From NCBI GenBank assembly GCA_011982905.1, contig GCA_011982905.1_4767.1: DNA of 59,846 bases. One strand, given 5' to 3'. The notes beneath the pieces are model-generated. The model was not told the origin of the DNA. It made no database searches and was given only the letters and a program-made list of their open reading frames with translations. This document shows, in pieces, positions 322 through 53,349 of the stretch. The position numbers and the translations under genes are program-made. Source of the stretch: a phage. Positions within the stretch are counted from its first letter, which is position 1. Every line of letters starts with the position of its first letter.

Positions 322-374
322 CCATGGAAATGAGCCATAGACAATATGTGTTGTGGCTCCTCCGACGTAATAGA

Positions 375-404: not shown

Positions 405-459
405 CCTGAAGAAGAGCTCCCGCCGCTTATCCCTACAACCATCGCAATGAGGAAGAAAG

Positions 460-966: not shown

Positions 967-969
967 TTT

Positions 970-1350
970 ATGAGCTTTCCTTACGAGCAGCTAGTTGAAG
1001 CTGCAAAGCAAATGATCAACGATGCTGGTGTTAACTGTACCCTTGTTGTTATGGAGCAAGGGGAAGGTCAAGATGAATGGGACGATCCGAGAGTTGAAAA
1101 ACGATACCCATTCATTGGAGCTTTCCTTTCACCGAGGGAAAAGATGATCGGTGGAAGCCTTGTTGCGGCTGGTGAACTGAAAGTCTTAACATATCCAATG
1201 ACGCCACCATTGACACGCGATAAAGCAATGACTGCACGCATTGAGCGTATGTCTCCTGATGGTGAGTTGGAAGTATGGACCATCAACGAGTTCGTTGATA
1301 CAAGACCTGCTAATGTTTCTGTTCTTTATACTTTCAAGGTGACGCGATAA
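970..1350 (+). CDS. head-tail joining protein, hypothetical
   Basis: 126-aa ORF packed tightly in the head-tail joining module. Confidence 0.35.
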   Translation: MSFPYEQLVEAAKQMINDAGVNCTLVVMEQGEGQDEWDDPRVEKRYPFIGAFLSPREKMIGGSLVAAGELKVLTYPMTPPLTRDKAMTARIERMSPDGELEVWTINEFVDTRPANVSVLYTFKVTR

Positions 1351-1757
1351 TGGGATTTGGGGCGGATATACGGCGTGCAAGTCAAAAGGTGCTTGTCCAG
1401 ACTGGGGAGCAAGCCAAAAAGGTTGTTGTCAAGTTCACGGAGAATGTAATTCAGGATACTCCTGTTAAGACCGGACGTACAAAAGGCGGTTGGCGTTCAT
1501 CCATTGGTGCACCATATGCGACGGAAACTATCCGCCTCGATCCTACTGGGGAATTAGCTAAAGCGGAAGCTAGGGTTATTGTAAGACAGTTGCCAGATGA
1601 TAAAGACTGGACTTTCTACTTTAGCAACTTAACCCCGTATGCTCCGAAACTTGAATATCTTGGTTGGTCGCAGCAAGCGCCAAATGGCATGGTGCGTATT
1701 AACGTAGCGAAGCTTCCAATGTTGATACGCCAAGCTATTGTAGAAGGAAAACTATAA
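1350..1757 (+). CDS. neck/tail completion protein, HK97 gp10-like
   Basis: 135 aa; TGRTKGGWRSSIG ... YAPKLEYLGW pattern recalled from the HK97 gp10 family; TAATG overlap with upstream gene. Confidence 0.5.
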   Translation: MGFGADIRRASQKVLVQTGEQAKKVVVKFTENVIQDTPVKTGRTKGGWRSSIGAPYATETIRLDPTGELAKAEARVIVRQLPDDKDWTFYFSNLTPYAPKLEYLGWSQQAPNGMVRINVAKLPMLIRQAIVEGKL

Positions 1758-2206
1758 TGCTGGGATACGATTTTATCAATGACGCATTTAATAAGATGCT
1801 ACGCGAAGCCGTTGGACCGGATATCGGTATAGCTTGGAAGAACAAGAAGTTCACACCTAAAGCCAACCAGATGTGGTTAAGGGCAATTAATGCTCCCGCT
1901 TCCACTTACTCTGCAACGCTAGGTGATAACGGTCTGAATGAAATTCCTGGTTTCTACCAAATTACAGTATATAGCCCTTTAAACACTGGAACGTCTAAGC
2001 AGAATCAAATCTTGGATTCTATTCGGAAAAAGTTTAAACTGGGCTTGCGTATCCCGTGCCCGGATGACCACACGTTACGGATTGTCAGTTTAGACTTTTC
2101 GCAAGGTGGACAAACTTCGCTGAACGATTTTACCAAAGGCGGGGTTGAAGATAACTGGGACGTTAACTTTATCACAATCTATTGGTCGGCTCGTGAGCCG
2201 AGGTAA
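1757..2206 (+). CDS. tail terminator-like protein
   Basis: 149-aa ORF directly upstream of the tail tube gene; TAATG coupling; call by position. Confidence 0.35.
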   Translation: MLGYDFINDAFNKMLREAVGPDIGIAWKNKKFTPKANQMWLRAINAPASTYSATLGDNGLNEIPGFYQITVYSPLNTGTSKQNQILDSIRKKFKLGLRIPCPDDHTLRIVSLDFSQGGQTSLNDFTKGGVEDNWDVNFITIYWSAREPR

Positions 2207-2220
2207 GAGAGGATCTAAAT

Positions 2221-3144
2221 ATGGCTACAGGTTCACGTTATTCGTGTTACTACGTCAAAGAAGATGTAAGCAACACTACGCCAGCGAGCGCGAAGTTTAC
2301 CCCGTTCCGTGTGACCAGCTCCGGTCTGGACATTAATATTGCAACGCTGGAATCTGAAGAACTGCGCGATGATGCCGAAACTGCGGATTTCCGCCTCGGT
2401 GCCCGCAGTGTTGAAGGCACAGTAACGGGCGAAATGTCCTTCGGCACCTTCGATGATCTTATTGCTGCTGCACTTCGTGGGGAGTGGCAAGACAACGTCC
2501 TTAAAGGCGGTATTGTCCGTCAGTCGTTTACTTTCGTAGACTATAACGCAGATCTGCCGTCAGGTAAATATACAATTTATCGCGGTTGCGAAGTTAATAG
2601 CATGACTTTCTCATTGTCTGCGGAAAACATGACCACAGTGGAATTTGGCATTGTTGGCCGCTCGATGGAGATTGCGGAATCGCTCCCATCTGGTGCAACT
2701 ATCAAAGACCGTACGACTACTTCACCGATGGATGGTTTCTCCGGTCGCTTGCTGGAAAACGACGAAGAAATCAGCGTTATTACGGAAATCGGTCTTACCG
2801 TGGAAAACGATATTGCGCCACGCTTTGTTGTTGGTTCTAAGTTCTCCATTGAACCGTCCGCTGGTCGTCGTGCGGTAACTGGTACAGCTAATGTGTACTT
2901 CCTGGATAACAAGCTGCGTATGAAGTATCTGGATGAAGTGGAAACTTCAATCAAGTTTGATCTGATTGACCCAAGCAATCCGGAACAAAAATACACTGTG
3001 GAAATCCCTCGCGTGAAATTCACTGAAGCTCCGCGTCCTATTGACGGTGAAGGGGATATCATGCTTAATATGGGCTACCGCGGATTGCTGGACCCAACAA
3101 CCGCAAGTTCCATCAAAATTACCCGCGTTGTAGCGGGAGCCTAA
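2221..3144 (+). CDS. major tail (tube) protein
   Basis: 307-aa ORF with strong RBS immediately upstream of the chaperone and tape measure genes; Ser/Thr/Gly-rich beta-type composition. Confidence 0.6.
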   Translation: MATGSRYSCYYVKEDVSNTTPASAKFTPFRVTSSGLDINIATLESEELRDDAETADFRLGARSVEGTVTGEMSFGTFDDLIAAALRGEWQDNVLKGGIVRQSFTFVDYNADLPSGKYTIYRGCEVNSMTFSLSAENMTTVEFGIVGRSMEIAESLPSGATIKDRTTTSPMDGFSGRLLENDEEISVITEIGLTVENDIAPRFVVGSKFSIEPSAGRRAVTGTANVYFLDNKLRMKYLDEVETSIKFDLIDPSNPEQKYTVEIPRVKFTEAPRPIDGEGDIMLNMGYRGLLDPTTASSIKITRVVAGA

Positions 3145-3153
3145 GGATAAGAA

Positions 3154-3561
3154 ATGACCGACACCAAAAAAGCCAAAGTTGCAGTAGCTAAAAGCTTCCG
3201 TGATTTTAAAACTGTGAGCCGGGCTAACGACCCGGCAAACACTAAGCCAATGAATGTGGTTATTCCTGGTGTAGGCGACACCGGCGAAAAACTCTACATT
3301 CGTAGCCGCTACTGCACAGAGTACCGTGATGCCGAACTGAAAGCACAGCGTCAACTGTTGGCGCTTATGCAGGGTAAAGATGGTGAAGTAACGGATGCTA
3401 TGAAGGAAGATATCCTTACCCGTTCACTGTGTAACCTTGTAGCAGGTTGGACTTTTGACGAGCCACCAACTGTTGACAACGTGTTTGAGTTCTTGACGGA
3501 GAACCCAACTGTCCGAGAAGACCTTAACGTATTTGCCGCTAAAGATAGTAATTTTTTCTAA
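3154..3561 (+). CDS. tail assembly chaperone (lambda G-like)
   Basis: 135-aa acidic ORF between tail tube and tape measure genes; ends ...DSNFF* within a T6 run. Confidence 0.65.
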   Translation: MTDTKKAKVAVAKSFRDFKTVSRANDPANTKPMNVVIPGVGDTGEKLYIRSRYCTEYRDAELKAQRQLLALMQGKDGEVTDAMKEDILTRSLCNLVAGWTFDEPPTVDNVFEFLTENPTVREDLNVFAAKDSNFF

Positions 3562-3959
3562 AAGCGCGCAGACAGTTAATTGATAAGAAGATCCTCCAAT
3601 GGGAACTAAATAGTAAAGTCCCCGGCGGGGGATCTTCTTTATTATCGCAACTGCAAAAGGTTGAGGAACAGTCTGGTAAGACGCCACCTAAGCTTAAAGA
3701 ATATCGGGAAAAGGAAATACCGCTTTGCTTCGAATATCTATCTACTTTATTTGATGATATCTACACTGGAGGAGATTTTAGTTATACAGAATTGCACAGC
3801 TATCAAGTGACAATGGGCTTACATCTTCAACCGTACGAATGCGAAATACTGCGGCAGCTATGGCTTGAAAAGCGCGTGTCTGAAGCTGAACAAAATGCTA
3901 AACTCATGGAAAGTCAAATGCAAAATCAGAATAAAGGTAGAAGGAAAAGGAGAAGGTAA
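3154..3959 (+). CDS. tail assembly chaperone -1 frameshift fusion product (G-T-like)
   Basis: Slippery heptamer T_TTT_TTC at 3552-3558; the -1 frame is open for 133 codons from 3558 and ends in TAA at 3957-3959, overlapping the tape measure ATG (TAATG); no in-frame start codon near its 5' end. Confidence 0.55.
3552..3558 (+). promoter_or_regulatory. candidate -1 ribosomal slippery site (T_TTT_TTC)
   Basis: XXXYYYZ heptamer at the 3' end of the chaperone ORF, in the position conserved for G/GT frameshifting in tailed phages. Confidence 0.5.
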
Positions 3960-6900
3960 TGGCCGAAACTGCTTCGCTAGTAATCAGGGTTGACGCGAAA
4001 GGGATTAGCACAGCGGACTCCATGCTGCGTAACCTTGCGCGTACAGGTGACACAGCGGAGCGTTCCGCTCAACGTGTCACATCCAGCTATAAAACATTGT
4101 CTAACACATCTAACGAACTTGCAACTGTCACAAGTCGTTTAGATGCTGCAATTGTAGGAATGATCAGCGTTGACACCATTAACCGTGTTATTTCGCTATC
4201 GGACTCCTGGACTATCCTCACCAACAAACTTGAACTGGCTCGTACTGGTAATGAAACCGTTGCGGATGCACAGCAACGCGTGTTTGATATTGCCCAGCGG
4301 TCACGTACAAGCTTGGAAGCAACTGCAACTCTATATTCCCGTCTCCAGCGTGCAATGAAGAATACTGGTATGACTGGTATGGAGCTTGGACGTATCACTG
4401 AAACAATTAACAAAGCGATGATTGTTTCCGGTGCAACGTCACATGAAGCAAGCGCTGCTCTTATTCAGTTTTCGCAAGCAATGGCATCCGGTGTTTTGCG
4501 CGGGGATGAATTCCGTTCTGTTGCAGAACAAGCCCCGCGCTTAACTCAAATCATGTCCGATGCGTTAGGTGTTACCATTGGACAATTGCGTGAAATGGCT
4601 TACAGCGGCAAGTTGAGCGCCGATGTGGTTATCAAATCGTTGTCTGGTGCTGCGGATACAATTGATAAAGAATTTAACCGCACTATGCCAACGTTCAACC
4701 AACAATGGACGATTGCAACAAACAACCTGACTAAATTTATGGGTGAGTCCCAAAAGACTCAAGGTGCGGTCGCTGCATTGGGACAGACGTTTGTTGCATT
4801 ATCCGAAAACTTAGGAACGGTTGTAACGGTTGGTTCAGCTTTAGCCACAGTGATTACCGCCCGTATCATTACGGCAATGCTTGCTAAGACTAAAGCGTCT
4901 ATAGCTGCTGCAAAAGCATCACAGATGGAAGCTGCACAAACGGCGGCAACTACTGCGGTGATGCAAAGCTCTATTGGCGTTACTGCACAGAAAGCGGCTG
5001 CGGATCGTGCTGCTTCTCTTGCAGCGTTACAGGTTGCTCGCGGGTCATTAGCGGTTGCTAAAGGTACGGCAGCGGAAGCAGGCGCACGTCTTGCGCTTAT
5101 TAATGCTACCCGTGCGCATTCTGCTGCAATTATGGCGGACGTACAAGCGCGGCAAGCGCTCAATGCTGCGCTTAATGCAACTGTACCAGCCGCAAGTCGA
5201 GCCGCTACAGCAATGAGCGTGCTGCGCGGTGCTATGGGGTTAATTGGCGGTCCTGTTGGTGTAGCAATGCTGGCAGCGGGTGCAATTTACTCCTATAAAG
5301 CGTCGCTGGAAGCTGGTCGTGCGGAAAACAATCAGTTTGCGGATAGTGTTGATGCTGTACGCGAAAAACTGATGCAGATGACAGAAGCTCAGTTGGCAGC
5401 CAACGCAGTTAAAGCTAGAGCAATTCTCCCCGAACTTGAAGAGCAAATGAAGCGAGAGCAAACTGCTCTTAAATCTGCAACGGAAACGCAGAAGTTCTAT
5501 GAAGCACAGTTAAAACGTCGTGCTGCGTCCGGTCGTGATACAGCCAGTGCTGAAAAGAACTTACAAGTTGCAACGGATAACGTCAAGCTTGCTGCCGAGC
5601 GTGCTGAAGAAGCTCAACGTCGTTACAACAATGTCTTAGAAATGACAAGCCCTGCTATCGAGAAAATAATTCCGTTAGCTCGTCAGCTTGCTGCTGATAT
5701 GAAGGCTGTTCTTAGCATCAAATCCGGTCCGCTTATTGACGAGAAAGTGCTTGATCGTTTTAAAGGTCAGTTAGGTGACGTTAACCGTGAGATCGACGTT
5801 AACACGGTTAAAGGAGCTGGTAACGCTCGCCAGGCTGCAATCCTTAGTGGGCTGTATCAAACTCTGGGCAAAGATGCAGACACCTACGGAAGTCTAATTC
5901 GCAAAGTAGCTATGGGGCAGGATGTTAGCTCTGAAGCGACAAGCGAGTCCTCAAAAGAACTTGTTAAATATGCACAAGAGTTAGCAGAAGCCTACGGCAA
6001 GAATTATGATCTCGAGGAAGCGGAGAGGAACCGAACTAAAGCGACAAAAGATGCTATTAAGGCAGATCAGCAAAATGCTAAGGTTATTGACGATTTACGC
6101 AACAAGCTTAACGAAGTAACCACAGGGGTTAAGGAAAACGCTAAAGCTAAAGCGCAAGCTGTAGCACTCAATAAGTTAAATGCGTCCGCAACAGCTGCGG
6201 AAAAAGCAGAAGTTGTTAGTCTTGCTGCTGCAATTTACGATGCAGAAGAAGCTCAAAAGAAACTGGACGAGCGTAAGAAGAATCGTAAGTTTGCTCAGGG
6301 TCTGTTAGATGAAGGTATGACAGACTATGAAAAAATCGCGTACGAGCAAAATACAAAGATTGCAGAGCTTAACGCAAAACAGCGAGCCGATGATTTAGCT
6401 TACTATCAGCTTTACGAAGATGCTAAAACCCAAGTGCTGAAAAAAGCAAGCATGGAAAGGGAAAACCTGGATAAAGTTCTTATGAACCGAATGATATCCT
6501 TTTCTCAGGAATCGTTGGGTATTATACTGTCAGGGCTGGAAGAAGGTGTTAGTAAGCAGAACTTTATTTATAAGGCAATGTTTGCCGCACAGAAAGCAAT
6601 GCAAATCCCATCAATCCTTGCTAACACGGAAACCGCGGCATCTGCGGCGCTTGCGTGGGGTACACAGCAAGGCGGTGCTACAATGGGCGCAGCTATGGCT
6701 GGAATTGTTAAAGCTATGGGTTATGCGTCCGCTGCTACTGTGGGTGGCTTAGCAATCGCTGGCATGGCACACGATGGTATTGATAATGTTCCACGCGAAG
6801 GTACATGGTTATTGGATAAAGGTGAACGCGTACTTAATGCTCCGTCTAATGACAAGTTAAACCGCTTCCTGGATAGCCAAGCTTCACAACAAGGTGGCGT

Positions 6901-8247: not shown

Positions 8248-8656
8248 AATGCCAGGATGGCAGACACGTTTATTAACCACAGTAAAGGAGTTGGCATCGA
8301 CTCCTTTTTCTTGGGGCGAAAACGATTGCTGTACGTTTGCCGCTAAATGTGTTGATGCACAATACAACACAAATATTTATAATCAGATAGCAGGTAAATA
8401 TAGCACAGAGCTTGGAAGCAAGAGATTCTCAATTGAAAAAGTCGGGACAGCTTATCTTCCAACCTTGCTTGACGCTTACCTGAGTGAGCGTGTTGATAAG
8501 AACTTTGCACAAAGAGGAGATGTGGTTACATTTGAGGGAGCATTGGGCTTAACTGCTGGCATATTATGGACGGGATATGTATGGGCTATGGGTCCGAACG
8601 GTGTGGAAACATTCCCGCTTAATAAGATCAAAATTACGGATATTTGGAGGGTCTAA
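8222..8656 (+). CDS. tail tip assembly protein (lambda K-like, papain/NlpC-like motif)
   Basis: ATG at 8222 preceded by GGGGGAG; the tracked ORF from 8072 is probably an upstream extension; ENDCCTF motif suggests an NlpC/P60-type fold. Confidence 0.45.
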   Translation: MRQDSRMSKMPGWQTRLLTTVKELASTPFSWGENDCCTFAAKCVDAQYNTNIYNQIAGKYSTELGSKRFSIEKVGTAYLPTLLDAYLSERVDKNFAQRGDVVTFEGALGLTAGILWTGYVWAMGPNGVETFPLNKIKITDIWRV

Positions 8657-11295
8657 TGCCACCAGCAATAATTGGAGCAGCAATAGCTTTAGGTGCTTCC
8701 GCTGCCGCTGCGGCGGGGTGGATTGCTACGGGCGTAGCTTTAGCTATTGGTATGGCTGCAACTGCGGCGGGTGCTCTTTTAACTAAGACACCTAATATGA
8801 ACTTTAATGCTTATAAAGGTCAACAAGATCGTAAACAGGTTTTACGAGCAGCCGCAGCGTCTCGAACAGTAGTGTATGGCACAACGGTCGCTTCCGGAGT
8901 TATGACGTTTGCCGAGGAGCAGCCTGGAGATCAGGACGAAGACGAACTCCTGCATATGGCTCTTGTTGTAGCTTCACATCCATTGGAGGGAATTGGTGAT
9001 ATTTGGCTTGGGGATGACCTTGTACAGACTTTCGAACAGTATGTCACTTGGGAATTCCATAACGACCGTCAGACTGTAGATCCATTCATGTTAAGCAATT
9101 GCCCTTCCTGGAAAGAGGATATGATCGGGAAAGGGATTGCATGGCTTCGTATTAGCTTTAAATTTAATGCGGAAAAATTCCCGTCTGGTTTGCCAAACAT
9201 TAAGCTTCTTAAAAGAGGTCGCCGTGTATATGATCCTCGTTCTGGTTATACCATATTTAGCGATAATGCAGCGTTAGTAATACTTGATTACTTCCGCACG
9301 TATTTAAAGCGCAAAGATGAAGATATTAACTGGGACCAATTCAAAGAAGCCGCTAACATCTGTGATGAATACGTCAATAACGCTGATGGTTCTACAGAGC
9401 GCCGTTATAAAATCAACGGTGAATTTGAAGTAGATGAAGCCCCATCCAAAATTCTGGATGCTATGTTGCAAGCTTGTGGCGGCGAGCTAACGTATGTAGC
9501 GGGTAAACACGGTCTTCTGGTTGGCGCATATTACGGTCCAGCAACAATGACGCTGGACGAAAGTTGTATTGCTGGGGATATTAAAATTGTTCCAGAAACT
9601 TCTTATAAGGAGCGCACCAACACCATCACAGGGACATTTATTGATCCAAAGCAAAACTATGTTGAAGCGGACTTTCCTCCAGTTGTGGTTAAGGAATGGG
9701 TGGAAAAGGACGGCGGTGAAATAACGCAAGACATGGATTTCCGATTTGTAACAAGCGAATATCAAGCCCAACGTTTGTCTAATATTATTCTACGTCGTAA
9801 ACGTGTTGGCCGCACAATTGAAATTCCTTGTAACATGAAGGGTTATAAATTTCGTCCAGGAATGTATGTAAAAGTTACCATCACGCAGATTGGCATGAAG
9901 AATGTTGAAATGCGCGTTACCAAATGGTCTTTTAACCCTAAAGGTGGGGTTAACCTTACCTTACGTCAAGATTTCCTGGAAATGTGGGACGATGCAATTG
10001 GTAAACCTATGGACCGACCGGATCTTGTAGACTTGCCAAGTGGTGGTGTTGCTCAACCTCAAAATCTCCAATACCAGATATTGCAGATTAGCGATGTGGT
10101 ACAGGGGGTATTATCCTGGACCAACATGGGGCAAGTTGCATACAACCGCGTAGCTGTGCGACAGGGAGGCGTTACTATTTGGACCGCACAAGTCCCTGGC
10201 CAAAGCGTTCGTGTCACTGGGTTGCTGCGTGGGGCGTATACTGCGCACGTTCAAGCTGTATCGCACAGTGGAGCAATATCACCGGAAGCTTATTTGGAGT
10301 TTAATATTCAAGCACCACCGCCACCTTCATCTGTTGAGATACAGAACGGTTATTTTTCTTTAACTCTTATACCAAAGATTGCAGAGCTCACTAGTGTTAG
10401 CACACAATTTGATTTCTGGACGTCTGGTGAAACAAAACTGCCGTCTGCTAATACAGATGTTGTTGAGCGCGATGCAACCCGTGAAGGTATGGGAACTATA
10501 TGGCAGAAAAATAACTTACTCAATGACCACACTTATTACTGGTATGTAAGAACTATCAATGCTTTTGGGTCGTCCGCGTTTGTGGAAGTTGAAGCTCGTG
10601 TATGGGCAGAAACTGCACAGATCATAGAAATTATGGATAAAGAGTTTCAAGAAACTGAAACTTTCAAAAACCTCATGGAGACTGTGCAAAAGGTTGATGA
10701 CGGTGTAACGGAATTGTCCAAAGTAGTTGAAGGACAAGCTACAAAAATTGAATCGGTTCAGAGTAGTGTGGGTGATGTTGTTGTTACCGTGCAAGAGCAA
10801 TCGCAAGCACTAGCAGATCTTAATGGCAAACTTTCTGCTCAATGGGGACAAAAGGTTCAAATAGACAATAATGGCAACAAATACGTTGCAGGTATGCAGT
10901 TAGGTATTGAAGGTAGCGGAGGACAATTCCAGTCTTACTTTATGGTGAGCGCTGATAACTTTGCTATTTATAATCCTGTAGCGGGAGCAGCACAGCTTGC
11001 TTTTGCTATTAAAAACGGTCAAAGTTTCTTACAAGAAGCTTTTATTGAAAACGGATCGATTACCAACGCTAAGATTGGTAATGTTATCCAGTCCAATAAC
11101 TGGAATGGTAACGATCAAGGTTGGGCAATTACAAAAGACGGTTATTGCGTATTTAATAACGTAACCGTCAGAGGGACAGTTGTTGCTAACGCTGGTCAAT
11201 TTGGTTTCAATGGAAATGGAGGTATTACAATTGATAGTAATGGTATTCGCGTTCCGTTATCCGGTGGGGGTGTTGTCATAGTAGGACGCTGGTGA
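8644..11295 (+). CDS. tail tip / host specificity protein (lambda J-like, with gpI-like N-terminal segment)
   Basis: 883 aa; Gly/Ala-rich hydrophobic N-terminus like the lambda I C-terminus; C-terminal half carries J-like motifs (YYWYVRTINAFGSSAFVE, KYVAGMQLG, FLQEAFIENGSITNAKI). Confidence 0.8.
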   Translation: MEGLMPPAIIGAAIALGASAAAAAGWIATGVALAIGMAATAAGALLTKTPNMNFNAYKGQQDRKQVLRAAAASRTVVYGTTVASGVMTFAEEQPGDQDEDELLHMALVVASHPLEGIGDIWLGDDLVQTFEQYVTWEFHNDRQTVDPFMLSNCPSWKEDMIGKGIAWLRISFKFNAEKFPSGLPNIKLLKRGRRVYDPRSGYTIFSDNAALVILDYFRTYLKRKDEDINWDQFKEAANICDEYVNNADGSTERRYKINGEFEVDEAPSKILDAMLQACGGELTYVAGKHGLLVGAYYGPATMTLDESCIAGDIKIVPETSYKERTNTITGTFIDPKQNYVEADFPPVVVKEWVEKDGGEITQDMDFRFVTSEYQAQRLSNIILRRKRVGRTIEIPCNMKGYKFRPGMYVKVTITQIGMKNVEMRVTKWSFNPKGGVNLTLRQDFLEMWDDAIGKPMDRPDLVDLPSGGVAQPQNLQYQILQISDVVQGVLSWTNMGQVAYNRVAVRQGGVTIWTAQVPGQSVRVTGLLRGAYTAHVQAVSHSGAISPEAYLEFNIQAPPPPSSVEIQNGYFSLTLIPKIAELTSVSTQFDFWTSGETKLPSANTDVVERDATREGMGTIWQKNNLLNDHTYYWYVRTINAFGSSAFVEVEARVWAETAQIIEIMDKEFQETETFKNLMETVQKVDDGVTELSKVVEGQATKIESVQSSVGDVVVTVQEQSQALADLNGKLSAQWGQKVQIDNNGNKYVAGMQLGIEGSGGQFQSYFMVSADNFAIYNPVAGAAQLAFAIKNGQSFLQEAFIENGSITNAKIGNVIQSNNWNGNDQGWAITKDGYCVFNNVTVRGTVVANAGQFGFNGNGGITIDSNGIRVPLSGGGVVIVGRW

Positions 11296-11304
11296 TCAAA
11301 TAAT

Positions 11305-11326
11305 AAACGGGGCGCATGCCCCGTTT
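11305..11326. terminator. bidirectional intrinsic terminator
   Basis: 9-bp stem AAACGGGGC / GCCCCGTTT with GCAT loop, AT/T-rich on both sides; sits between convergent genes ending at 11295 (+) and 11328 (-). Confidence 0.65.
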
Positions 11327-11327
11327 A

Positions 11328-12293
11328 TTAATACATATTTGGTATAGCTATGAGCGGTGTTGAGATCACCACGTTACGACCGGGCATTTGGAATTGTTGT
11401 CGCGAGTAGTTGCCTACCACGCGGTTTCTTGCAGCACCTACCACGTTATCTGCCATGCGAATCCCGTTCATGCGAATATGATTATAACCTCCGTTGTTCT
11501 CAATAAGCGTACCTGTGTATGCAAGTTGTATTAAGCTGTTACCAATATTTTGCCAGCCTGCGCTAAGATCTACTGTTCCGTTGAATACAAAAGGCTTCTT
11601 AACCGTGGAGAACGTAACCTGTCCCGCGCTGTTTGTCATGGTAATACCATCACCAGGCTGTGGGGGAGTGTTATTAAATATTACTAATTCCATTCCAACA
11701 GAAGCCGCTACGTCATCAATTCCACCATATGCTGCGTTGCGAACAATAATATTCGAACCATCAAAACCTACTGATACGTTAGGGTCGTTCCAGCGAGCAA
11801 ACGGAACACCACCGACAGGTAATGGCATACTGCCGTTAACCCATACGTACTGGGAATACTGACAAGTCATGAGAAAGGCTGCGTTGGATATTGCTGTGAA
11901 GTCCGTGGAGTTAGCCACAAATAGACCCTCGTTTCGCGTTCCTACCGGTAGCAGTTCCATAATCACCCCTGCCCATTGCGGCAGTCCGCTATAGGCACCC
12001 AGTCCGTCCGCACCTCGCAACGTCACCCCACCGTTACCGTTTCGAGTTACAGACGTTACATACATTGGATCAGGGATAACTAGCGTCTGATCAAATACTT
12101 CCAGTACTTCAACTGGGTTAGTCATAATAACGACATGCTGCGATCCTGGCGTCAGAGGTGTATTGATGGTTAGTGTTTTGTCAGATTGACATCGCTGATT
12201 GAAGTTAGCGCAAAAAGACGGGGCTCTCAATCCTGCTGTTATTTGCATTGCAGGTCTACCGTCATTGTAGTTTATATAAATACCCTCTGGCAT
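11328..12293 (-). CDS. hypothetical beta-rich protein encoded antisense within the tail module
   Basis: ATG at 12293 preceded by GGAG; 321 aa, Gly/Asn/Thr/Val-rich; own divergent promoter region and convergent terminator. Confidence 0.5.
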   Translation of the reverse strand: MPEGIYINYNDGRPAMQITAGLRAPSFCANFNQRCQSDKTLTINTPLTPGSQHVVIMTNPVEVLEVFDQTLVIPDPMYVTSVTRNGNGGVTLRGADGLGAYSGLPQWAGVIMELLPVGTRNEGLFVANSTDFTAISNAAFLMTCQYSQYVWVNGSMPLPVGGVPFARWNDPNVSVGFDGSNIIVRNAAYGGIDDVAASVGMELVIFNNTPPQPGDGITMTNSAGQVTFSTVKKPFVFNGTVDLSAGWQNIGNSLIQLAYTGTLIENNGGYNHIRMNGIRMADNVVGAARNRVVGNYSRQQFQMPGRNVVISTPLIAIPNMY

Positions 12294-12417
12294 AATTACT
12301 CCAACAATGTGGTTAAAGATGATAGACAATATTGTTTTATATTCTAATTTAATTTACCATATTTATATGCCATAGTGCATCCATTAATTGATCAACTCTG
12401 CGAAACAAGAGGTAAAA

Positions 12418-14526
12418 ATGGCAACTCGTTTATATGGTATTCTGAAGGATGGTTTAAATAAACCGATTGTTAACGCTACCGTCGCCCTTTTAGCAAAAGG
12501 GAACACAATTACCGTTCTTAATGGTAGTGAGGCTGTATTTCGTACAGACGGAGAAGGTTCCTATAATGTAACTGTGCAAGCAGGGCATTACAAAGTGATC
12601 ATTGGACCACAGGGTCTTGAGCCTTATAAAGCTGGTGAGATAGTTATTTATTCCGACAGCCCTGAAGGTTCGCTAAACGGATATTTAATCAACTGGGCTC
12701 CGGAAGAATTAACTCCGGACGTTATCAAACAAGTCCAGCAACTTGTGGCTAACTCTGAAGAATATGCTCTGCAAGCTGGTCGCTCTGCTGCCGCAGCAAA
12801 CGCAGATGCTACGGACGCTCGCAATAGTAAGGCTTCCGCTGCTCAATCTGCTTCGGATGCACTTGTCTATAAAAATGATGCCAAAGCTAGCGAAGACGCT
12901 GCTAAACAAGCACAAGCTGGAGCTGCTGGTTCTGCTAACACTGCGACCCAAGCTGTAACCACAATTCAAGGTCTTAAATCTGACGTTGAGCAGTTAAAAA
13001 CAGATACACAGGGTATTAAGAATAGCGCAGTAACGGAAACTACCGCGCTAAAAGACGCTGCTGCTGCTTCAGCTACGCAAGCAAGTAATAGTGCTACCGA
13101 AGCAGGACAACAAGCTGGTAACGCGGCTGGTAGCGCAAATAGCGCTAAGGGCGACGCGGACCGTGCAAAGGCAGAAGCAGACCGTGCGGAAGTTGCAGCT
13201 AACAGGGCCCCGGATCTTCAACCTTTCCCTGACGTATGGATTCCATTTAATGACTCGCTTGATATGCTTGCAGGTTACTCGCCAGGGTATAAGAAAATAA
13301 CAGTTGGTGAAGATGTTATTACAATGCCTTCTGATAAGGTTGTTAGTTTCTCGCGTGCGTCAAATGCAACATACATAAATAAGCATGGTGAATTTTGCAT
13401 TGCTAATATCGATGAACCTAGATTTGAAAAGCAAGGACTCTTGATTGAAGGCCAGAGGACAAACCACATAACTTACAGCAATGACCCAGCGTCATTGAAT
13501 AGTGATAAGCATCGTAGCGACGTTACCTACGGTATCGATAAATATGGATTTACCTATAGTACCGCAACCGCAAATGAAAACGGTCAAGGTGATACACCTT
13601 CACTATTTTATTGCGAATACAATAACAACATATATTGTGAACAGAACGAATACGCAACCTTATCTATTAGAGTAAAAGCGAGTAATATTTCCATAATTCC
13701 TCAATTCTATGCGTTAGGAGAAGATAATGCCCTTATTCTTGTTGTAAGATCTATAGTGTCGTGCGACACAGGGGAGGTGACATCTACACTCGAAGCTAGA
13801 GGAACCGTAACACACAGAATTATCAAAGAAGATAACGGATGGCTGAAGGTTGAAATAATATGTAAATTTTCCGATATTGCAGGTGCTATGATTGGGAGTA
13901 TTAACTATGCCCGCGGCTCTAACGGGGATAACGTGCAAGTTGGGGATACAATATCATTTTGTACTCCGCAATTTGAAAAGGGTTTTTGTGCATCCTCCTT
14001 CATTATTACGGGAAGCACGCCTGCAACAAGGGCTCTGGATTATGTTACTATACCTGCAAGAAATAATTTCTCAGGAACGAATATTTCATTCCTTGCTGAG
14101 GTAAGTATTAACTGGGATAGCTTTGAATTAGTTAATACATACCCGATGATAATGGATAACAGTAAATATAATATAGCAGGGGAATCTTTTGTATCGGAGA
14201 TGTTTATGGCTACAAGAGTGCCTAGCGTTTACTTTTTAAATAAGGAAACTGGACGTTCTACAGGCTCAAACGGAGCTTCATTTAGTGGTGTTGGCATCCC
14301 CTCCGTATGGGGTTTTATACATACAAAAAACGGGGATGTAACATCGTTTTTGAATGGTTTTAAGAATATAACATCCTCCGGTTCAACGTGGGAAGGACTA
14401 TCTCCGGATTCCTTGCTGGAGATAGGCGGTAGACCTTCCGATTCAACTAAATTATATGGACACATACGAAACCTTAGAATATGGAATCGAGTATTAACGG
14501 ATAGTCAAATGAGGGAGAAAGTTTAA
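12418..14526 (+). CDS. side tail fibre (lambda Stf-like N-terminus, LamG-like C-terminal domain)
   Basis: ATG at 12418 with AAGAGG RBS; N-terminal ~90 aa resemble the lambda Stf N-terminus (GILKDG..KP..N.T); Ala/Ser-rich collar; C-terminus ends LRIWNRVLTDSQM, typical of a concanavalin/LamG-like jelly roll. Confidence 0.8.
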   Translation: MATRLYGILKDGLNKPIVNATVALLAKGNTITVLNGSEAVFRTDGEGSYNVTVQAGHYKVIIGPQGLEPYKAGEIVIYSDSPEGSLNGYLINWAPEELTPDVIKQVQQLVANSEEYALQAGRSAAAANADATDARNSKASAAQSASDALVYKNDAKASEDAAKQAQAGAAGSANTATQAVTTIQGLKSDVEQLKTDTQGIKNSAVTETTALKDAAAASATQASNSATEAGQQAGNAAGSANSAKGDADRAKAEADRAEVAANRAPDLQPFPDVWIPFNDSLDMLAGYSPGYKKITVGEDVITMPSDKVVSFSRASNATYINKHGEFCIANIDEPRFEKQGLLIEGQRTNHITYSNDPASLNSDKHRSDVTYGIDKYGFTYSTATANENGQGDTPSLFYCEYNNNIYCEQNEYATLSIRVKASNISIIPQFYALGEDNALILVVRSIVSCDTGEVTSTLEARGTVTHRIIKEDNGWLKVEIICKFSDIAGAMIGSINYARGSNGDNVQVGDTISFCTPQFEKGFCASSFIITGSTPATRALDYVTIPARNNFSGTNISFLAEVSINWDSFELVNTYPMIMDNSKYNIAGESFVSEMFMATRVPSVYFLNKETGRSTGSNGASFSGVGIPSVWGFIHTKNGDVTSFLNGFKNITSSGSTWEGLSPDSLLEIGGRPSDSTKLYGHIRNLRIWNRVLTDSQMREKV

Positions 14527-14527
14527 A

Positions 14528-14794
14528 ATGAAAGATATTAATTTGCAATTTAAAGACGAAAAACATTATCGGGATGTTGTCATTAATAGTAACTGGCTTA
14601 AGACAAACTACGGTAAAGTGTTTGTAGATGAAATTGGTTTTGTCCTCATAGTAGATGACCCGAAAAGCAAGACGCCAGTTGTTATTGGTAAAGAAGGTTA
14701 TTATATAGATATAAGAATAATAGGAGACAATGTAGACTTGTCGGAACTTGAACAATTTATTATTAAGAATCCCTGTGTACGTAAATGGGCATAA
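14528..14794 (+). CDS. hypothetical protein (possible fibre accessory protein)
   Basis: 88-aa ORF with GAGGGAG RBS between two fibre genes. Confidence 0.4.
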   Translation: MKDINLQFKDEKHYRDVVINSNWLKTNYGKVFVDEIGFVLIVDDPKSKTPVVIGKEGYYIDIRIIGDNVDLSELEQFIIKNPCVRKWA

Positions 14795-14804
14795 GAGGTG
14801 ATCA

Positions 14805-16565
14805 ATGACTACTTATACTAATATTCCTCAGGACATTACAAAGCTTAAATTCGAAAAGATGGATAAAAGTAATAACTTATCTGATCTTGCGGACCGTGCC
14901 GCTGCGTGGTTAAACGTTCGACCAATTGGGTCTACACCCTTAGCTGGGGACCCCGTTAGCGATTATGATGCAACAACTAAACGTTGGGTAGAGAACCTGA
15001 TTAACACAGGTACAGTTGGTCCAACAATGAACGGGGTGATGAATTACGGGGTAGGGGATTTCCATCTTCGGGATAGTCGTGCATATATACAACCGTATGA
15101 AGTGGTCGCTGACGGTCAATTGCTTAATCGCGCTGACTGGCCTGAATTATGGAATTACGCTCAAATGGTGGGCGCTATAGATGATTCTGAATGGCTAGCT
15201 GATAAATTCCAGCGCGGCAAATATTCTAAGGGTGACGGAGCAACAACTTTTCGTGTCCCCGATAAAAACGGTGTTCAAGAAGGATCAGTCAGAGCGCTTT
15301 ATGGTCGTGGTGATGGCGGCGCTAGTAGTGCAAACGGACAAATATTCGAATCCGCTGCGCCTAATATTACAGGTTTTTTCACCACATATTCAGCTCAAAC
15401 CTATGGCCAGGTATTAGGTCAAACTGGTGGTTGTTTTAACGCAAACAATAATGCTTTCCCTGAAGGAAAAGGCGATGGAATCCCTCCAGGGACTACAGCT
15501 CTTGCTGGACGTTACAACACCTGTGACTTCAATGCTTCAATTTCAAGTCCAATTTACGGCGCATCCACTGATGAAATCCTTACGCGCAACTTTGTCGGTG
15601 TGTGGGTAATCCGTGCGTCAGGTGGGTTTGTTGCGGCAAATACATCATGGAGTGTAATAAACGCTGATGCTGTCAAACCTTCTTCTGGAACAATTGTAAG
15701 AGGGGGTAGTGTAAAATCAGAATACAAGATAGGTACGACTACCACACATCAAGCGTATTTGCAATCTTACGGAAAGATTGATGGATTGAGCAGCGAATCA
15801 GGGGCGGTGTTATCAAATGGTGTTCAGGAATGGGCGTTCAGTCAAGATGGTACATTACGCCTTCCAAACGCAGAATTTCAGATCGGGACATTGAGAACTG
15901 ATGGAGCGCTACAGGTTGACGCATACATACGAGCAAAAGACTTCGTTGCACAGCCGTTAAACTCTGTCGGCGTTTCTGCTATAGAAAGAAACGCCATGAG
16001 GATGATAAACTATGCAAATGTTGGTGAAGGGTATTTTATAAACTCTATAAGTGGCGATTGGTACGATGGAAGCTGGATTCTTGGTGGGATTCGCTCTGGT
16101 AGCACGTTGTTAGATAGGGCACAGCTTAATGTCTACGGAGGAAATGGATCAGCTGGGTCTTATCTTTTTGGGTCGGACGGTATAGCAAAATGTCAAGAAT
16201 GGAGAAGCTTATCTGATAAACGAATTAAAAGCAATATTGAGCGTATAGATAACCCACTATCTAAGATGAGAAACATCAAAGGCGTTAAATGGACATTGGA
16301 AACAAATGGGTCAGTTGGGTATGGATTTATTGCTCAGGATGTAGAGAAGGATTTCCCTGAAGCAGTATCCGAAACAAAGTCCTCTCCTGTTACCTTACGC
16401 AATGGTTCATCCGTGACTGATGTAAAGTCTGTAAACACTTCCGGTATAGCCGCAGCGCTACATCATGAAGCAATTCTTGCTTTGATGCAAAAAGTGGAGA
16501 ACCTAGAAGCGGAATTAGCTGCACTAAAAGAAGCGAATGGTTCACAGCAAACTAACCTTCCATAA
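14805..16565 (+). CDS. tail fibre with C-terminal intramolecular chaperone (peptidase S74-like) domain
   Basis: 586 aa; C-terminal SDKRIKSNIERIDNPL...VKWTL...GFIAQDVE motif typical of the autoproteolytic chaperone domain of phage fibres, followed by a coiled coil. Confidence 0.75.
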   Translation: MTTYTNIPQDITKLKFEKMDKSNNLSDLADRAAAWLNVRPIGSTPLAGDPVSDYDATTKRWVENLINTGTVGPTMNGVMNYGVGDFHLRDSRAYIQPYEVVADGQLLNRADWPELWNYAQMVGAIDDSEWLADKFQRGKYSKGDGATTFRVPDKNGVQEGSVRALYGRGDGGASSANGQIFESAAPNITGFFTTYSAQTYGQVLGQTGGCFNANNNAFPEGKGDGIPPGTTALAGRYNTCDFNASISSPIYGASTDEILTRNFVGVWVIRASGGFVAANTSWSVINADAVKPSSGTIVRGGSVKSEYKIGTTTTHQAYLQSYGKIDGLSSESGAVLSNGVQEWAFSQDGTLRLPNAEFQIGTLRTDGALQVDAYIRAKDFVAQPLNSVGVSAIERNAMRMINYANVGEGYFINSISGDWYDGSWILGGIRSGSTLLDRAQLNVYGGNGSAGSYLFGSDGIAKCQEWRSLSDKRIKSNIERIDNPLSKMRNIKGVKWTLETNGSVGYGFIAQDVEKDFPEAVSETKSSPVTLRNGSSVTDVKSVNTSGIAAALHHEAILALMQKVENLEAELAALKEANGSQQTNLP

Positions 16566-16581
16566 CCACATCTAACTTCTC

Positions 16582-16606
16582 AGCGCGTCTTCGGGCGCGC
16601 TTTTTA
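16582..16606 (+). terminator. intrinsic terminator
   Basis: GC-rich stem AGCGCGTC / GGCGCGCT closed by a TTCG tetraloop, followed by T5. Confidence 0.7.
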
Positions 16607-16684
16607 TTGACTGTCAATCCCAATTTACAAAATCTTTACATTTGGATCATTGTAAAAAGCATGTTAAGGGGTATGCTTTACTTC

Positions 16685-16700
16685 GTAACCAGTTGGTTAC
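16685..16700 (+). promoter_or_regulatory. operator-like palindrome GTAACCA-GT-TGGTTAC
   Basis: Perfect 7-bp inverted repeat with 2-bp spacer, 35 bp upstream of the ATG at 16735, in an AT-rich promoter-like gap. Confidence 0.35.
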
Positions 16701-16734: not shown

Positions 16735-16998
16735 ATGTCTGACATGACTCTTTTACCTACTAATCTCGGTGGCGACGGTTTCGGCGGTGAAGCTGGTGCG
16801 GCTGGTATCGGTGGCGCGATCGGTGGCTTAATTGGTTCCTGGATCGGTAATGGTTGGGGTGGCAATGGTGGTTGGGGTGGTCGCGGTAACTTCGCCGGTC
16901 CGGTGGAAGTGCAAGCTTCTATTGACACCAACGCAATTCTGCAAGCTATCAACAACGGTACTCTTCAGACCATTCAGGGCAGAACGGTACTAACCTGA
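16735..16998 (+). CDS. glycine-rich small protein with possible double-glycine leader (MSDMTLLPTNLGG)
   Basis: 87-aa ORF with GGAGA RBS; residues 12-52 are Gly/Ala/Trp-rich (GGDGFGGEAGAAGIGGAIGGLIGSWIGNGWGGNGGWGG); flanked by promoter-like region and terminator-like hairpin. Confidence 0.45.
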   Translation: MSDMTLLPTNLGGDGFGGEAGAAGIGGAIGGLIGSWIGNGWGGNGGWGGRGNFAGPVEVQASIDTNAILQAINNGTLQTIQGRTVLT

Positions 16999-17120
16999 CT
17001 GTTGAGCGCTCCGCTGCTTCTACCTATAACGGTATTACTCAGCAGAACACTCAAAACCTACTGGCTTCCGTTCAGGGCTTTGCTGGTCTGAACACGCAGA
17101 TCCAGGGTGGCACCAGCCAA

Positions 17121-17441
17121 GTGCTCGCGGCTCTGTGTAACAACGAAGCAGCTAACATTACCCGTTCCTTCCAGGCGCAGCTAGAAGCTCAGAAGTGTTG
17201 CTGCGAAACCAACCTGAACATCGAGCGTCAAGCAGAAGCTACTCGTGCGCTCCTGCGCGATCAGCACGCACAGGCGCAAGCAGTTCTGATCTGTGACCTG
17301 AAATCTCAGTTGCAGGAAGCTCGCTTTGCAAACTCTCAGTTGGCACAAACGGCTGGTCTTACTTGTAAGATCAATCAGGTTGAGCAGTTAGTTAACTTTA
17401 AACTGCCAACTCCTCCGACTCCTCCGACTGGCTGCTGCTAA
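17121..17441 (+). CDS. Cys-containing Gln-rich ORF (GTG start; possibly continuous with upstream ORF)
   Basis: This frame is open from 16926, overlapping the 3' end of the 16735 ORF in the -1 frame, with no ATG before the GTG at 17121; contains CCC and C-terminal PTPPTPPTGCC. Confidence 0.35.
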   Translation: MLAALCNNEAANITRSFQAQLEAQKCCCETNLNIERQAEATRALLRDQHAQAQAVLICDLKSQLQEARFANSQLAQTAGLTCKINQVEQLVNFKLPTPPTPPTGCC

Positions 17442-53329: not shown

Positions 53330-53349
53330 CAATAAGAAAGGGGGCTTCC

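What the first reader, a model, noticed from the sequence alone, without database searches (positions are those of the whole stretch)
11328..16565. Three distinct fibre genes plus an antisense gene embedded in the tail module
Besides the J-like tip protein, the phage encodes a lambda Stf-like fibre with a LamG-type C-terminal domain and a second fibre with a C-terminal intramolecular chaperone (S74-like) domain, suggesting two receptor-binding specificities. Between J and Stf, a 321-aa Gly/Asn/Thr-rich gene (11328..12293) is transcribed in the opposite direction with its own divergent promoter region and a convergent terminator, which is atypical for a tail operon. It may be a moron such as a superinfection-exclusion or receptor-modifying protein, or an extra receptor-binding protein.
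Basis: partly seen in the sequence, partly recalled or inferred. Interest (0 to 1): 0.5.

Follow-up and report, generated by a model that had tools for sequence, protein, structure and literature searches.

The report
Known LptD-binding receptor protein gene
The backwards-facing gene inside this phage's tail module is the phage's main receptor-binding protein, a close relative of one already shown by cryo-EM to grip the bacterial LptD outer-membrane channel, so the layout is the normal, published one for this phage group rather than an oddity.

Summary
The window is a complete, circularly permuted Seuratvirus (Queuovirinae) coliphage genome. It encodes a J-like tip protein (8656-11295), a convergent 321-aa gene (11328-12293, minus strand), and two lateral fibre genes: a 702-aa Stf-like protein and a 586-aa fibre with an S74 chaperone.

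The antisense gene is not a moron or an exclusion gene. It is a full-length DUF6453 protein (E 4e-131). It is 76% identical, without gaps, to the Oekolampad (Bas18) receptor-binding protein solved in complex with LptDE (PDB 9RPT). It is 94% identical to the orthologue of ChristophMerian (Bas19), a phage shown experimentally to depend on LptD.

The convergent position directly after gpJ is the standard arrangement in Drexlerviridae, Dhillonvirus and Queuovirinae, and a 2026 preprint calls it typical of Queuovirinae. Comparison with Dru_SM1 delimits a swappable receptor cassette at 11178-12417. It holds the last ~39 J codons, a bidirectional terminator, the RBP gene and a 124-bp AT-rich divergent spacer.

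The two-fibre module is shared, at 82% nucleotide identity, with T5-like O157 phages.

One feature is not described in the papers I read: the Rtp45-type superinfection-exclusion lipoprotein that accompanies this RBP in other phage groups has no detectable homologue anywhere in this genome.

Verdict: already known, low interest.

The parts
8656..11295 (+). J-like central tail tip protein (879 aa). It is the scaffold that carries the RBP.
   Evidence: Pfam Phage_Tail_Tip, Ig_J_second, Phage-tail_3 and Ig_J; phrog_31 'central tail fiber J'. The start at 8656 follows from identity of length and sequence to the SA126VB and VogelGryff J proteins.
11178..11292 (+). Last ~39 codons of J: an LptD-type J tip. 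It marks the left edge of the exchangeable receptor cassette and is the inferred docking site for the RBP.
   Evidence: Dru_SM1 is 96.8% identical to the window up to 11177 and then unrelated until 12418. The last 40 aa are 58% identical to Dhillonvirus Pandora71 J, against 25% for the J body, and 32-48% identical to Queuovirinae with other cassettes. The tip aligns to the very C-terminus of PDB 23gd_D, 'J-like tail tip protein gp24'. Receptor-specific GpJ C-terminal domains are reported in bioRxiv 10.64898/2026.04.02.716166, Fig S12.
11301..11330 (.). Bidirectional rho-independent terminator hairpin between the convergent J and RBP genes.
   Evidence: 13-bp perfect stem, 4-nt loop, dG -20.5 kcal/mol on both strands. 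SA126VB annotates terminators on both strands at the homologous place. The simple scan missed it because its T-run rule was not met.
11328..12293 (-). Terminal receptor-binding protein (321 aa, DUF6453), predicted to bind the LptD/LptE outer-membrane LPS translocon.
   Evidence: DUF6453 E 3.9e-131. PDB 9RPT/9RPW/9RQI chain C E 8.5e-164, with 245/321 identical and no gaps. Identity is 99.1% to SA126VB, 94.4% to ChristophMerian (Bas19), 66.7% to VogelGryff (Bas25), 75.7% to Pandora71 and 34.6% to AugustePiccard. Gln299, which contacts LptD Ser350 in the published complex, is conserved.
12294..12417 (.). AT-rich divergent spacer (27% GC). It is the right-hand part of the cassette and must hold the promoters of the RBP gene and of the lateral-fibre operon.
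   Evidence: Sequence and composition. The spacer is conserved among LptD-type Queuovirinae and unrelated in Bas21, Dru_SM1 and BRET up to the LTF ribosome-binding site. SA126VB annotates a + strand promoter here. The consensus scan found no strong minus-strand promoter.
12418..14526 (+). Lateral tail fibre protein 1 (702 aa). It has a lambda Stf-type N-terminal tail anchor, an Ala-rich shaft, and a C-terminal beta region with ConA/LamG-type jelly-roll folds.
   Evidence: phage_tail_N E 2.8e-23; Laminin_G_3 26.0 bits; NCBIfam GTA_spike_fiber E 6e-15. The N-terminal 91 aa match PDB 9e7m_Ta 'Tail fiber protein'. Many homologues carry PF13385. The AF2 model is all-beta (pLDDT 64 overall, 70-92 in the core) and hits LamG, galectin and phage baseplate fibre folds. 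Residues 112-702 are 69% identical to T5-like FFH1 gp080.
14528..14794 (+). 88-aa protein of unknown role that travels with the fibre module (possible adaptor or assembly factor).
   Evidence: phrog_1361, E 2.4e-27, no Pfam match. An equivalent small gene sits between the two fibre genes in SA126VB, BRET, Dru_SM1, VogelGryff and T5-like FFH1.
14805..16565 (+). Lateral tail fibre protein 2 (586 aa). It has no tail-anchor domain, a collar-like N-terminal half, and a C-terminal S74 intramolecular chaperone.
   Evidence: Peptidase_S74 E 8.9e-13 at residues 470-521. The LSDKRIK motif gives S470 and K475. Residues 16-314 match DT57C LtfA residues 528-828, PDB 8hqz_d, E 1e-124. The protein is 88% identical to FFH1 gp082.
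16582..16611 (+). Rho-independent terminator that ends the lateral-fibre operon.
   Evidence: 8-bp GC-rich stem followed by TTTTATT. SA126VB annotates a terminator at the homologous position.

Best explanation
The region is the host-recognition module of a Seuratvirus-type (Queuovirinae) siphophage, in its standard published layout.

**The antisense gene.** It encodes the phage's dedicated terminal receptor-binding protein.
- The protein most likely docks non-covalently on the C-terminal tip of the J-like central fibre. This step is inferred.
- It then inserts into the extracellular face of the LptD/LptE lipopolysaccharide translocon, which commits the phage to irreversible adsorption and DNA ejection. 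Binding is shown by cryo-EM for a 76%-identical homologue. LptD dependence is shown genetically for a phage whose orthologue is 94% identical.

**The cassette.** The gene sits in a 1.24-kb exchangeable cassette (11178-12417). The cassette holds the matching J tip, a bidirectional terminator, the RBP gene and its own AT-rich promoter spacer. Recombination swaps this unit between phages to change the receptor.

**The lateral fibres.** The downstream operon encodes a two-protein lateral fibre.
- Protein 1 anchors to the tail through a lambda Stf-type N-terminal domain and ends in lectin-like jelly-roll domains.
- Protein 2 has no anchor. It presumably rides on protein 1, perhaps through the 88-aa protein, and trimerises using a self-cleaving S74 chaperone.
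- Together they probably give reversible binding to O-antigen glycans before the RBP finds LptD. This is inferred by analogy with other small siphophages and with T5-like phages.
For: **RBP identity.**
- DUF6453 E 3.9e-131.
- Full-length, gap-free match to PDB 9RPT chain C, E 8.5e-164, 76% identity, with Gln299 conserved.
- PMC12685063 shows that this protein binds an open state of LptDE, and that LptD point mutations abolish both binding and infection.
- PMC8594841 shows that Bas19, Bas20 and Bas25 (Queuovirinae) require LptD and that the locus downstream of gpJ tracks receptor specificity. The window protein is 94.4% identical to the Bas19 orthologue and 66.7% to the Bas25 orthologue.
- The same convergent layout occurs in Dhillonvirus and Drexlerviridae and is called typical of Queuovirinae.

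**Cassette boundaries and J tip.** Boundaries and co-variation of the J tip with the cassette type come, in agreement.

**Transcription signals.**

**Fibres.**. The branched LtfA/LtfB precedent is in PMC4728585 and PMC10713586.
Against: - No experiment on this particular phage exists: receptor use, virion incorporation and transcription are all inferred from homologues.
- The RBP differs from the solved homologue at 24% of positions. Divergence is highest in the C-terminal third (70% identity), which includes a known LptD contact, so altered specificity cannot be fully excluded.
- No promoter for the antisense gene was detected by consensus.
- The RBP lacks the partner superinfection-exclusion lipoprotein found with it in other phage groups.
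- How fibre 2 attaches, and whether the LamG-type domains bind glycans, is untested. The AF2 model is only of moderate confidence (pLDDT 64).
Confidence: 0.9

Rival explanations
1. The antisense gene is a moron expressed for the benefit of the infected cell: a superinfection-exclusion or receptor-modifying membrane protein.
For: phrog_1265 is labelled 'membrane protein' in the category 'moron, auxiliary metabolic gene and host takeover'. Several GenBank records call homologues 'membrane protein'. The gene has its own transcription unit on the opposite strand. In sister phages Bas21 and Dru_SM1 the same slot does hold an antisense lipoprotein.
Against: [quoted passage not shown] It has no signal peptide, lipobox or hydrophobic segment (sequence; lipobox scan). 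The known exclusion proteins of this system are unrelated ~75-aa lipoproteins.
Confidence: 0.02
2. It is a receptor-binding protein of the DUF6453 family but has drifted to a receptor other than LptD, or needs a co-receptor.
For: Identity to the solved RBP is only 70% in the C-terminal third. VogelGryff, with an identical J, has an RBP only 66.7% identical, so the gene evolves fast. Bas01 needs NupG in addition to LptD.
Against: Every DUF6453-type locus tested so far matches LptD dependence 'without exception', across proteins only 33% identical to one another. The 94%-identical Bas19 orthologue goes with LptD dependence. The NupG requirement of Bas01 maps to a GpJ domain, not to this protein.
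Confidence: 0.06
3. The two downstream fibre genes encode independent, alternative lateral fibres that each attach separately to the tail, rather than one composite or branched fibre.
For: Each has its own putative binding domain: LamG-type jelly rolls in one, a divergent tip followed by an S74 chaperone in the other.
Against: Fibre 2 has no phage_tail_N domain or other anchor domain. Its N-terminal half is homologous to an internal stretch (residues 528-828) of DT57C LtfA. The C-terminal part of fibre 1, the 88-aa gene and fibre 2 move together as one block between Queuovirinae and T5-like phages, while the N-terminal anchor is family-specific. DT57C sets a precedent for a fibre attached through another fibre.
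Confidence: 0.2

Closest known systems
RBP of Escherichia phage Oekolampad (Bas18, Dhillonvirus), PDB 9RPT/9RPW/9RQI chain C (Dunbar et al., PNAS 2025, PMC12685063)
   Same: Same family (DUF6453) and the same length of 321 aa, with 76% gap-free identity. Both are encoded convergently, immediately downstream of gpJ. Both phages have a similar J C-terminal tip. The Gln299 contact residue is conserved.
   Different: The host phage is a Queuovirinae with an otherwise unrelated J body (25% identity). There is no upstream superinfection-exclusion lipoprotein gene. The C-terminal third is the most diverged part.
Orthologous genes bas19_0020 (ChristophMerian), bas25_0021 (VogelGryff) and SA126VB_21, all annotated 'hypothetical protein'
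   Same: Same gene, same position and same orientation, at 94.4%, 66.7% and 99.1% identity. Bas19 and Bas25 are experimentally LptD-dependent.
   Different: Nothing structural. Only the lateral-fibre module downstream differs between these phages.
Rtp44/Rtp45 of phage Rtp and the AugustePiccard (Bas01) locus (Drexlerviridae)
   Same: A DUF6453 RBP convergent to gpJ, with predicted or demonstrated LptD targeting.
   Different: Only ~35% identity. These loci carry the Rtp45-type lipoprotein directly upstream of the RBP in the same operon, which is absent here.
Phage T5 pb5 (Oad) with Llp
   Same: The same working principle: a dedicated monomeric RBP carried at the tip of the central fibre binds an outer-membrane protein, and in the other small siphophages a small lipoprotein excludes superinfection.
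   Different: Not homologous. The receptor is FhuA rather than LptD, and exclusion works allosterically rather than sterically. This is an analogy, not membership.
Branched LtfA/LtfB lateral fibres of T5-like phage DT57C, and the gp080-gp081-gp082 locus of T5-like FFH1
   Same: Fibre 2 residues 16-314 match LtfA residues 528-828 (E 1e-124). Both have S74 chaperone ends. FFH1 shares the whole block at 82% nucleotide identity: fibre 1 is 69% identical over the shared region and fibre 2 is 88% identical.
   Different: The anchor is a lambda Stf-type N-terminal domain instead of a T5 pb1-type N-terminus. Fibre 1 ends in LamG-type domains rather than an S74 chaperone. The physical arrangement (branched or serial) is not known here.
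Lambda J plus Stf/Tfa
   Same: J-family central fibre domains, and a phage_tail_N anchor on the side fibre.
   Different: Lambda J binds LamB directly through its own C-terminal domain, whereas here J is short and carries a separate RBP. No Tfa-type assembly gene is present. The fibre tip is LamG-type.

Membership tests
LptD-targeting receptor-binding proteins of small siphophages (Pfam DUF6453; RBP_Oeko / Rtp44 family) | Full-length match to the family profile, with a length of ~310-321 aa | tested here: met
   PF20051 E 3.9e-131, residues 4-297 against profile positions 1-290 of 291; the protein is 321 aa. The literature uses an ORF length of 930-960 bp as a criterion; this ORF is 966 bp including the stop codon.
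LptD-targeting receptor-binding proteins of small siphophages (Pfam DUF6453; RBP_Oeko / Rtp44 family) | Sequence homology to a member with a solved LptDE complex | tested here: met
   PDB 9RPT_C E 8.5e-164; 245/321 identical with no gaps; Gln299 conserved.
LptD-targeting receptor-binding proteins of small siphophages (Pfam DUF6453; RBP_Oeko / Rtp44 family) | Encoded in the hypervariable locus directly downstream of gpJ | tested here: met
   32 nt separate the two stop codons, and the genes are convergent, as in Pandora71, AugustePiccard, G8, SA126VB, Bas19 and Bas25.
LptD-targeting receptor-binding proteins of small siphophages (Pfam DUF6453; RBP_Oeko / Rtp44 family) | Matching receptor-type-specific C-terminal tip on GpJ | tested here: met
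   The last 40 aa of J are 58% identical to the LptD-type Dhillonvirus J, against 25% for the body, and 32-48% identical to Queuovirinae with other cassettes. The concept is described.
LptD-targeting receptor-binding proteins of small siphophages (Pfam DUF6453; RBP_Oeko / Rtp44 family) | Adjacent cognate superinfection-exclusion lipoprotein (Rtp45 / SE_Oeko type). This is a feature of the locus in Dhillonvirus and Drexlerviridae, not of the RBP itself. | tested here: not met
   Only 124 bp lie upstream of the RBP, with no ORF. tblastn with three SE proteins finds nothing in the window or in SA126VB. None of 60 evenly sampled records among 328 SE hits has a Queuovirinae-sized genome.
LptD-targeting receptor-binding proteins of small siphophages (Pfam DUF6453; RBP_Oeko / Rtp44 family) | Physical binding to LptDE, and infection that depends on LptD | not testable with these tools
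   Shown for homologues only.
Lambda Stf-type side tail fibres | N-terminal 'prophage tail fibre N-terminal' anchor domain | tested here: met
   PF08400 E 2.8e-23 over the full profile. PDB 9e7m_Ta E 4.9e-15, residues 1-91.
Lambda Stf-type side tail fibres | Downstream Tfa-type tail fibre assembly chaperone | tested here: not met
   The next gene is an 88-aa protein in phrog_1361 with no Pfam or NCBIfam match.
LamG / ConA-like lectin fold (C-terminus of fibre 1) | Profile match above the curated cut-off, or a fold match | tested here: inconclusive
   PF13385 scores 26.0 bits against a 27.6-bit cut-off, although many homologues carry PF13385. The AF2 model (pLDDT 64) gives Foldseek hits to phage baseplate fibre proteins (E 3e-6) and to neurexin LNS, laminin LG and galectin domains. 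Whole-model TM-scores are low (0.2-0.3) and single-domain target TM-scores are 0.5-0.6.
Fibres with a C-terminal S74 intramolecular chaperone (K1F endosialidase, T5 pb1, DT57C LtfA/LtfB) | Peptidase_S74 domain above the cut-off | tested here: met
   PF13884 E 8.9e-13, 48.8 bits against a cut-off of 22, residues 470-521.
Fibres with a C-terminal S74 intramolecular chaperone (K1F endosialidase, T5 pb1, DT57C LtfA/LtfB) | Ser-x4-Lys catalytic dyad at the cleavage site. The motif is known from the endosialidase and T5 pb1 work (my own knowledge); a conserved cleavage motif is mentioned. | tested here: met
   LSDKRIK, with S470 and K475, lies at the start of the Pfam match (sequence). Cleavage itself is not testable here.

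The most novel reading that the evidence does not exclude
Queuovirinae that use the DUF6453 LptD-binding protein have no dedicated superinfection-exclusion factor for LptD, or use an unrelated and so far unrecognised one. In Dhillonvirus and Drexlerviridae the same RBP type always travels with an Rtp45-type lipoprotein. Sister Queuovirinae with other receptor cassettes keep an antisense lipoprotein in this very slot. If true, exclusion at an essential receptor would be dispensable, or solved differently, in this lineage.
Probability: 0.4. Interest if true: 0.3.

Novelty: already known. Interest (0 to 1): 0.12.

Why it matters
It matters little as a discovery.

**What is already in the literature.** The gene family, its receptor (LptD/LptE), its structure in complex, its position after gpJ and its presence in Queuovirinae were all published between 2021 and 2026.

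**What the result is good for.**
- It corrects an annotation. The gene is labelled 'hypothetical protein' or 'membrane protein / moron' in GenBank and PHROGs and should be called an LptD-type receptor-binding protein.
- It allows the terminal receptor of this phage to be predicted from sequence.
- It fixes precise cassette boundaries (11178-12417), which would help anyone retargeting the receptor by engineering.

**What is still open.** The missing exclusion lipoprotein is a small, testable question.

Tried and rejected
- **Sigma-70 and terminator consensus scan of 11100-12600.** It found fewer promoter-like sites than shuffled sequence gives, and it missed the real hairpin because of its T-run rule. 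I folded the hairpin directly instead.
- **Search for an exclusion lipoprotein.**
  - tblastn with the Pandora71, Bas01 and G8 lipoproteins against the window and against the rebuilt SA126VB genome gave only chance hits, all with E above 0.1. These fell inside the terminase gene, an Ig-like protein gene and the fibre genes.
  - A lipobox regular-expression scan found no credible candidate.
- **Search for PDB code 23GD in the literature.** Only unrelated papers came up, so the composition of that entry is unknown to me. The RBP search found no RBP homologue in it.
- **Citrobacter phage HCF1 match to the first 34 RBP residues.** I considered it as evidence for a conserved docking peptide. I rejected it because it is a truncated remnant in a record flagged UNVERIFIED_ASMBLY.
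- **Structure prediction of the RBP.** I did not run it, because a 76%-identical experimental structure is stronger evidence than a model.
- **Moron / membrane-protein reading (PHROG label).** Rejected; see the rival explanations.
- **The 122-aa ORF at 11494-11862 (+ strand, antisense to the RBP gene).** It has nothing to support it and I treated it as a shadow ORF.


Full report
**What the window is.** The region 8600-16700 is 95% identical at the nucleotide level to Escherichia phage vB_EcoS_SA126VB and 94% to phiG7, both Seuratvirus (Queuovirinae). Mapping the whole window onto SA126VB shows that it is a complete genome in a different circular permutation. Window 2-53342 corresponds to SA126VB 6508-61753, and window 53344-59846 to SA126VB 3-6506.

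**Checking the observation.**
- The J-like protein is 879 aa from the ATG at 8656. It carries Phage_Tail_Tip and J Ig-like domains.
- The antisense ORF at 11328-12293 has an ATG preceded by GGAG. GC skew turns negative across it.
- Between the stop codons of J and the antisense gene lies a perfect 13-bp hairpin at 11301-11330, with dG -20.5 kcal/mol on either strand. SA126VB annotates it as a terminator on both strands.
- Upstream of the antisense gene is a 124-bp spacer of 27% GC, reaching to the start codon of the next plus-strand gene. A consensus scan found no clear sigma-70 promoter there, so the promoter is inferred.
- The Stf-like gene really starts at 12418 (702 aa), judged from its homologues and its ribosome-binding site.
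- It is followed by an 88-aa gene, a 586-aa fibre gene and a terminator at 16582-16611.

**What the antisense gene is.**
- It is a full-length member of Pfam DUF6453 (E 3.9e-131).
- A search of solved structures gave a single, decisive hit: chain C of PDB 9RPT, 9RPW and 9RQI, E 8.5e-164, aligned from residue 2 to residue 321 without gaps. Identity is 245/321, or 76%.
- Those entries come from Dunbar et al., PNAS 2025 (PMC12685063). [quoted passage not shown] LptD point mutations that confer resistance abolish binding in vitro.
- Gln299 of that protein hydrogen-bonds to LptD Ser350. It is conserved in the window protein.
- The BASEL study (PMC8594841) had already shown that ChristophMerian (Bas19), FritzHoffmann (Bas20) and VogelGryff (Bas25), all Queuovirinae, require LptD. 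It also showed that the 'bona fide RBP locus' downstream of gpJ matches receptor specificity without exception.
- The window protein is 94.4% identical to the Bas19 orthologue, 66.7% to the Bas25 orthologue and 99.1% to the SA126VB orthologue.
- Black et al. (PMC13035648) used the same positional and length criteria to pick LptD-RBPs, including one from a Nonagvirus.
- A 2026 preprint (10.64898/2026.05.19.726188) states that J, a lateral tail fibre, and a non-conserved RBP homologous to the Bas18 LptD binder form the organisation typical of Queuovirinae.
- The antisense orientation is not unusual either. In Dhillonvirus (Pandora71) and Drexlerviridae (AugustePiccard, G8) the RBP gene is likewise convergent with gpJ.

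**Anatomy of the cassette.**
- Dru_SM1, a Seuratvirus with a different receptor module, is 96.8% identical to the window up to position 11177. It then shares nothing until 12418, the start codon of the lateral fibre gene.
- The exchangeable unit is therefore 11178-12417. It holds the last ~39 codons of J, the bidirectional terminator, the RBP gene and the divergent spacer.
- The spacer is conserved among LptD-type Queuovirinae and unrelated in Bas21, Dru_SM1 and BRET.
- The J tip co-varies with the cassette. The last 40 residues are 58% identical to the J of an LptD-type Dhillonvirus whose J body is only 25% identical. They are only 32-48% identical to Queuovirinae with other cassettes.
- The tip aligns to the extreme C-terminus of PDB 23gd_D, 'J-like tail tip protein gp24'.
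- Receptor-specific GpJ C-termini have been reported independently.
- I infer that the J tip is the docking site for the RBP. This is not shown.
- In the same slot, Bas21 and Dru_SM1 carry a longer J plus an antisense 77-aa lipoprotein, and BRET carries two other antisense genes.

**The one departure from the published picture.**
- In Dhillonvirus and Drexlerviridae the RBP gene is preceded, in the same operon, by a ~75-aa lipoprotein of the Rtp45/SE_Oeko type. Rtp45 is shown to be a superinfection-exclusion factor that binds LptD.
- Here there is no room for such a gene.
- tblastn with three such lipoproteins finds nothing in this complete genome or in SA126VB, and a lipobox scan finds no credible candidate.
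- A database search with the Oekolampad-type lipoprotein returned 328 phage records. None of 60 evenly sampled rows had a Queuovirinae-sized genome.
- I did not find this absence mentioned in the papers I read. The 2026 preprint says only that accessory proteins are 'frequently' co-localised.

**The lateral fibres.**
- *Fibre 1* has the lambda Stf-type N-terminal anchor (PF08400, E 2.8e-23; PDB 9e7m_Ta), followed by an Ala-rich shaft and a 430-aa C-terminal beta region.
  - That region matches NCBIfam GTA_spike_fiber and, just under the cut-off, Laminin_G_3.
  - Its homologues are abundant in E. coli prophage side fibres, and many carry PF13385.
  - An AlphaFold2 model built on 28 sequences is all-beta, with moderate confidence: pLDDT 64 overall, 70-92 in the core.
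  - Its best structural matches are Pseudomonas phage baseplate fibre proteins and tandem LamG, galectin and neurexin-LNS domains.
- *Fibre 2* has a clear S74 chaperone domain with an S470/K475 dyad motif.
  - It has no anchor domain.
  - Its N-terminal half matches residues 528-828 of DT57C LtfA (E 1e-124).
- *The shared block.* The window from 12976 to 16551 is 82% identical at the nucleotide level to the fibre locus of T5-like phage FFH1. This block covers the C-terminal three-quarters of fibre 1, the 88-aa gene and fibre 2.
  - At the protein level fibre 1 is 69% identical (over residues 112-702) and fibre 2 is 88% identical.
  - The N-terminal anchor is family-specific.
- *Reading.* This pattern, together with the DT57C precedent of one fibre protein attached through another, favours a composite fibre over two independent ones. 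That is an inference.

**Verdict.**
- The feature is an already known, structurally characterised kind of gene in its usual place.
- The missing exclusion lipoprotein is a small open point.

Noticed in passing
window 1-59846: The window is a complete Seuratvirus genome, circularly permuted relative to SA126VB. Window 2-53342 corresponds to SA126VB 6508-61753, and window 53344-59846 to SA126VB 3-6506.
   Followed up: yes
window 16735-17441 (indel at ~16977): A 1-nt deletion in a run of four G (GGGG to GGG), relative to SA126VB, splits the homologue of SA126VB_25 into 87-aa and 106-aa ORFs. SA126VB_25 is a 235-aa protein with a Gly-rich N-terminus and a Cys-rich C-terminus ending PTPPTPPTGCC. 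This is either a homopolymer sequencing error or a real pseudogene.
   Followed up: partly
whole window; cassette 11178-12417: No Rtp45/SE_Oeko-type superinfection-exclusion lipoprotein is detectable anywhere in the genome. The same RBP type always has one next to it in Dhillonvirus and Drexlerviridae, and sister Queuovirinae with other cassettes keep an antisense lipoprotein in this slot.
   Followed up: partly
phage records of 75-79 kb listed (ECBP2, NJ01, ES17, Bas91 LorandFenyves and others); SU7: Homologues of the LptD-type exclusion lipoprotein (31-43% identity) occur in 75-79 kb podophages. DUF6453 gives a weak hit (23% identity, E 4e-6) in podophage SU7. An LptD-type recognition and exclusion module may therefore exist outside siphophages.
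   Followed up: no
L013 (Citrobacter phage HCF1) 2501-2602: Only the first 34 codons of the RBP (82% identical) survive, abutting the 3' end of the J gene, in a record flagged UNVERIFIED_ASMBLY. This is probably a deletion remnant or a misassembly.
   Followed up: partly
L002 (VogelGryff) 3057-6695 compared with window 8656-12293: The J proteins are essentially identical, yet the RBPs are only 66.7% identical. The RBP gene diverges or recombines much faster than the fibre that carries it.
   Followed up: partly
window 14528-14794: An 88-aa protein (phrog_1361, no Pfam match) always sits between the two lateral fibre genes, in both Queuovirinae and T5-like phages. Its role (adaptor or assembly factor) is unknown.
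   Followed up: no
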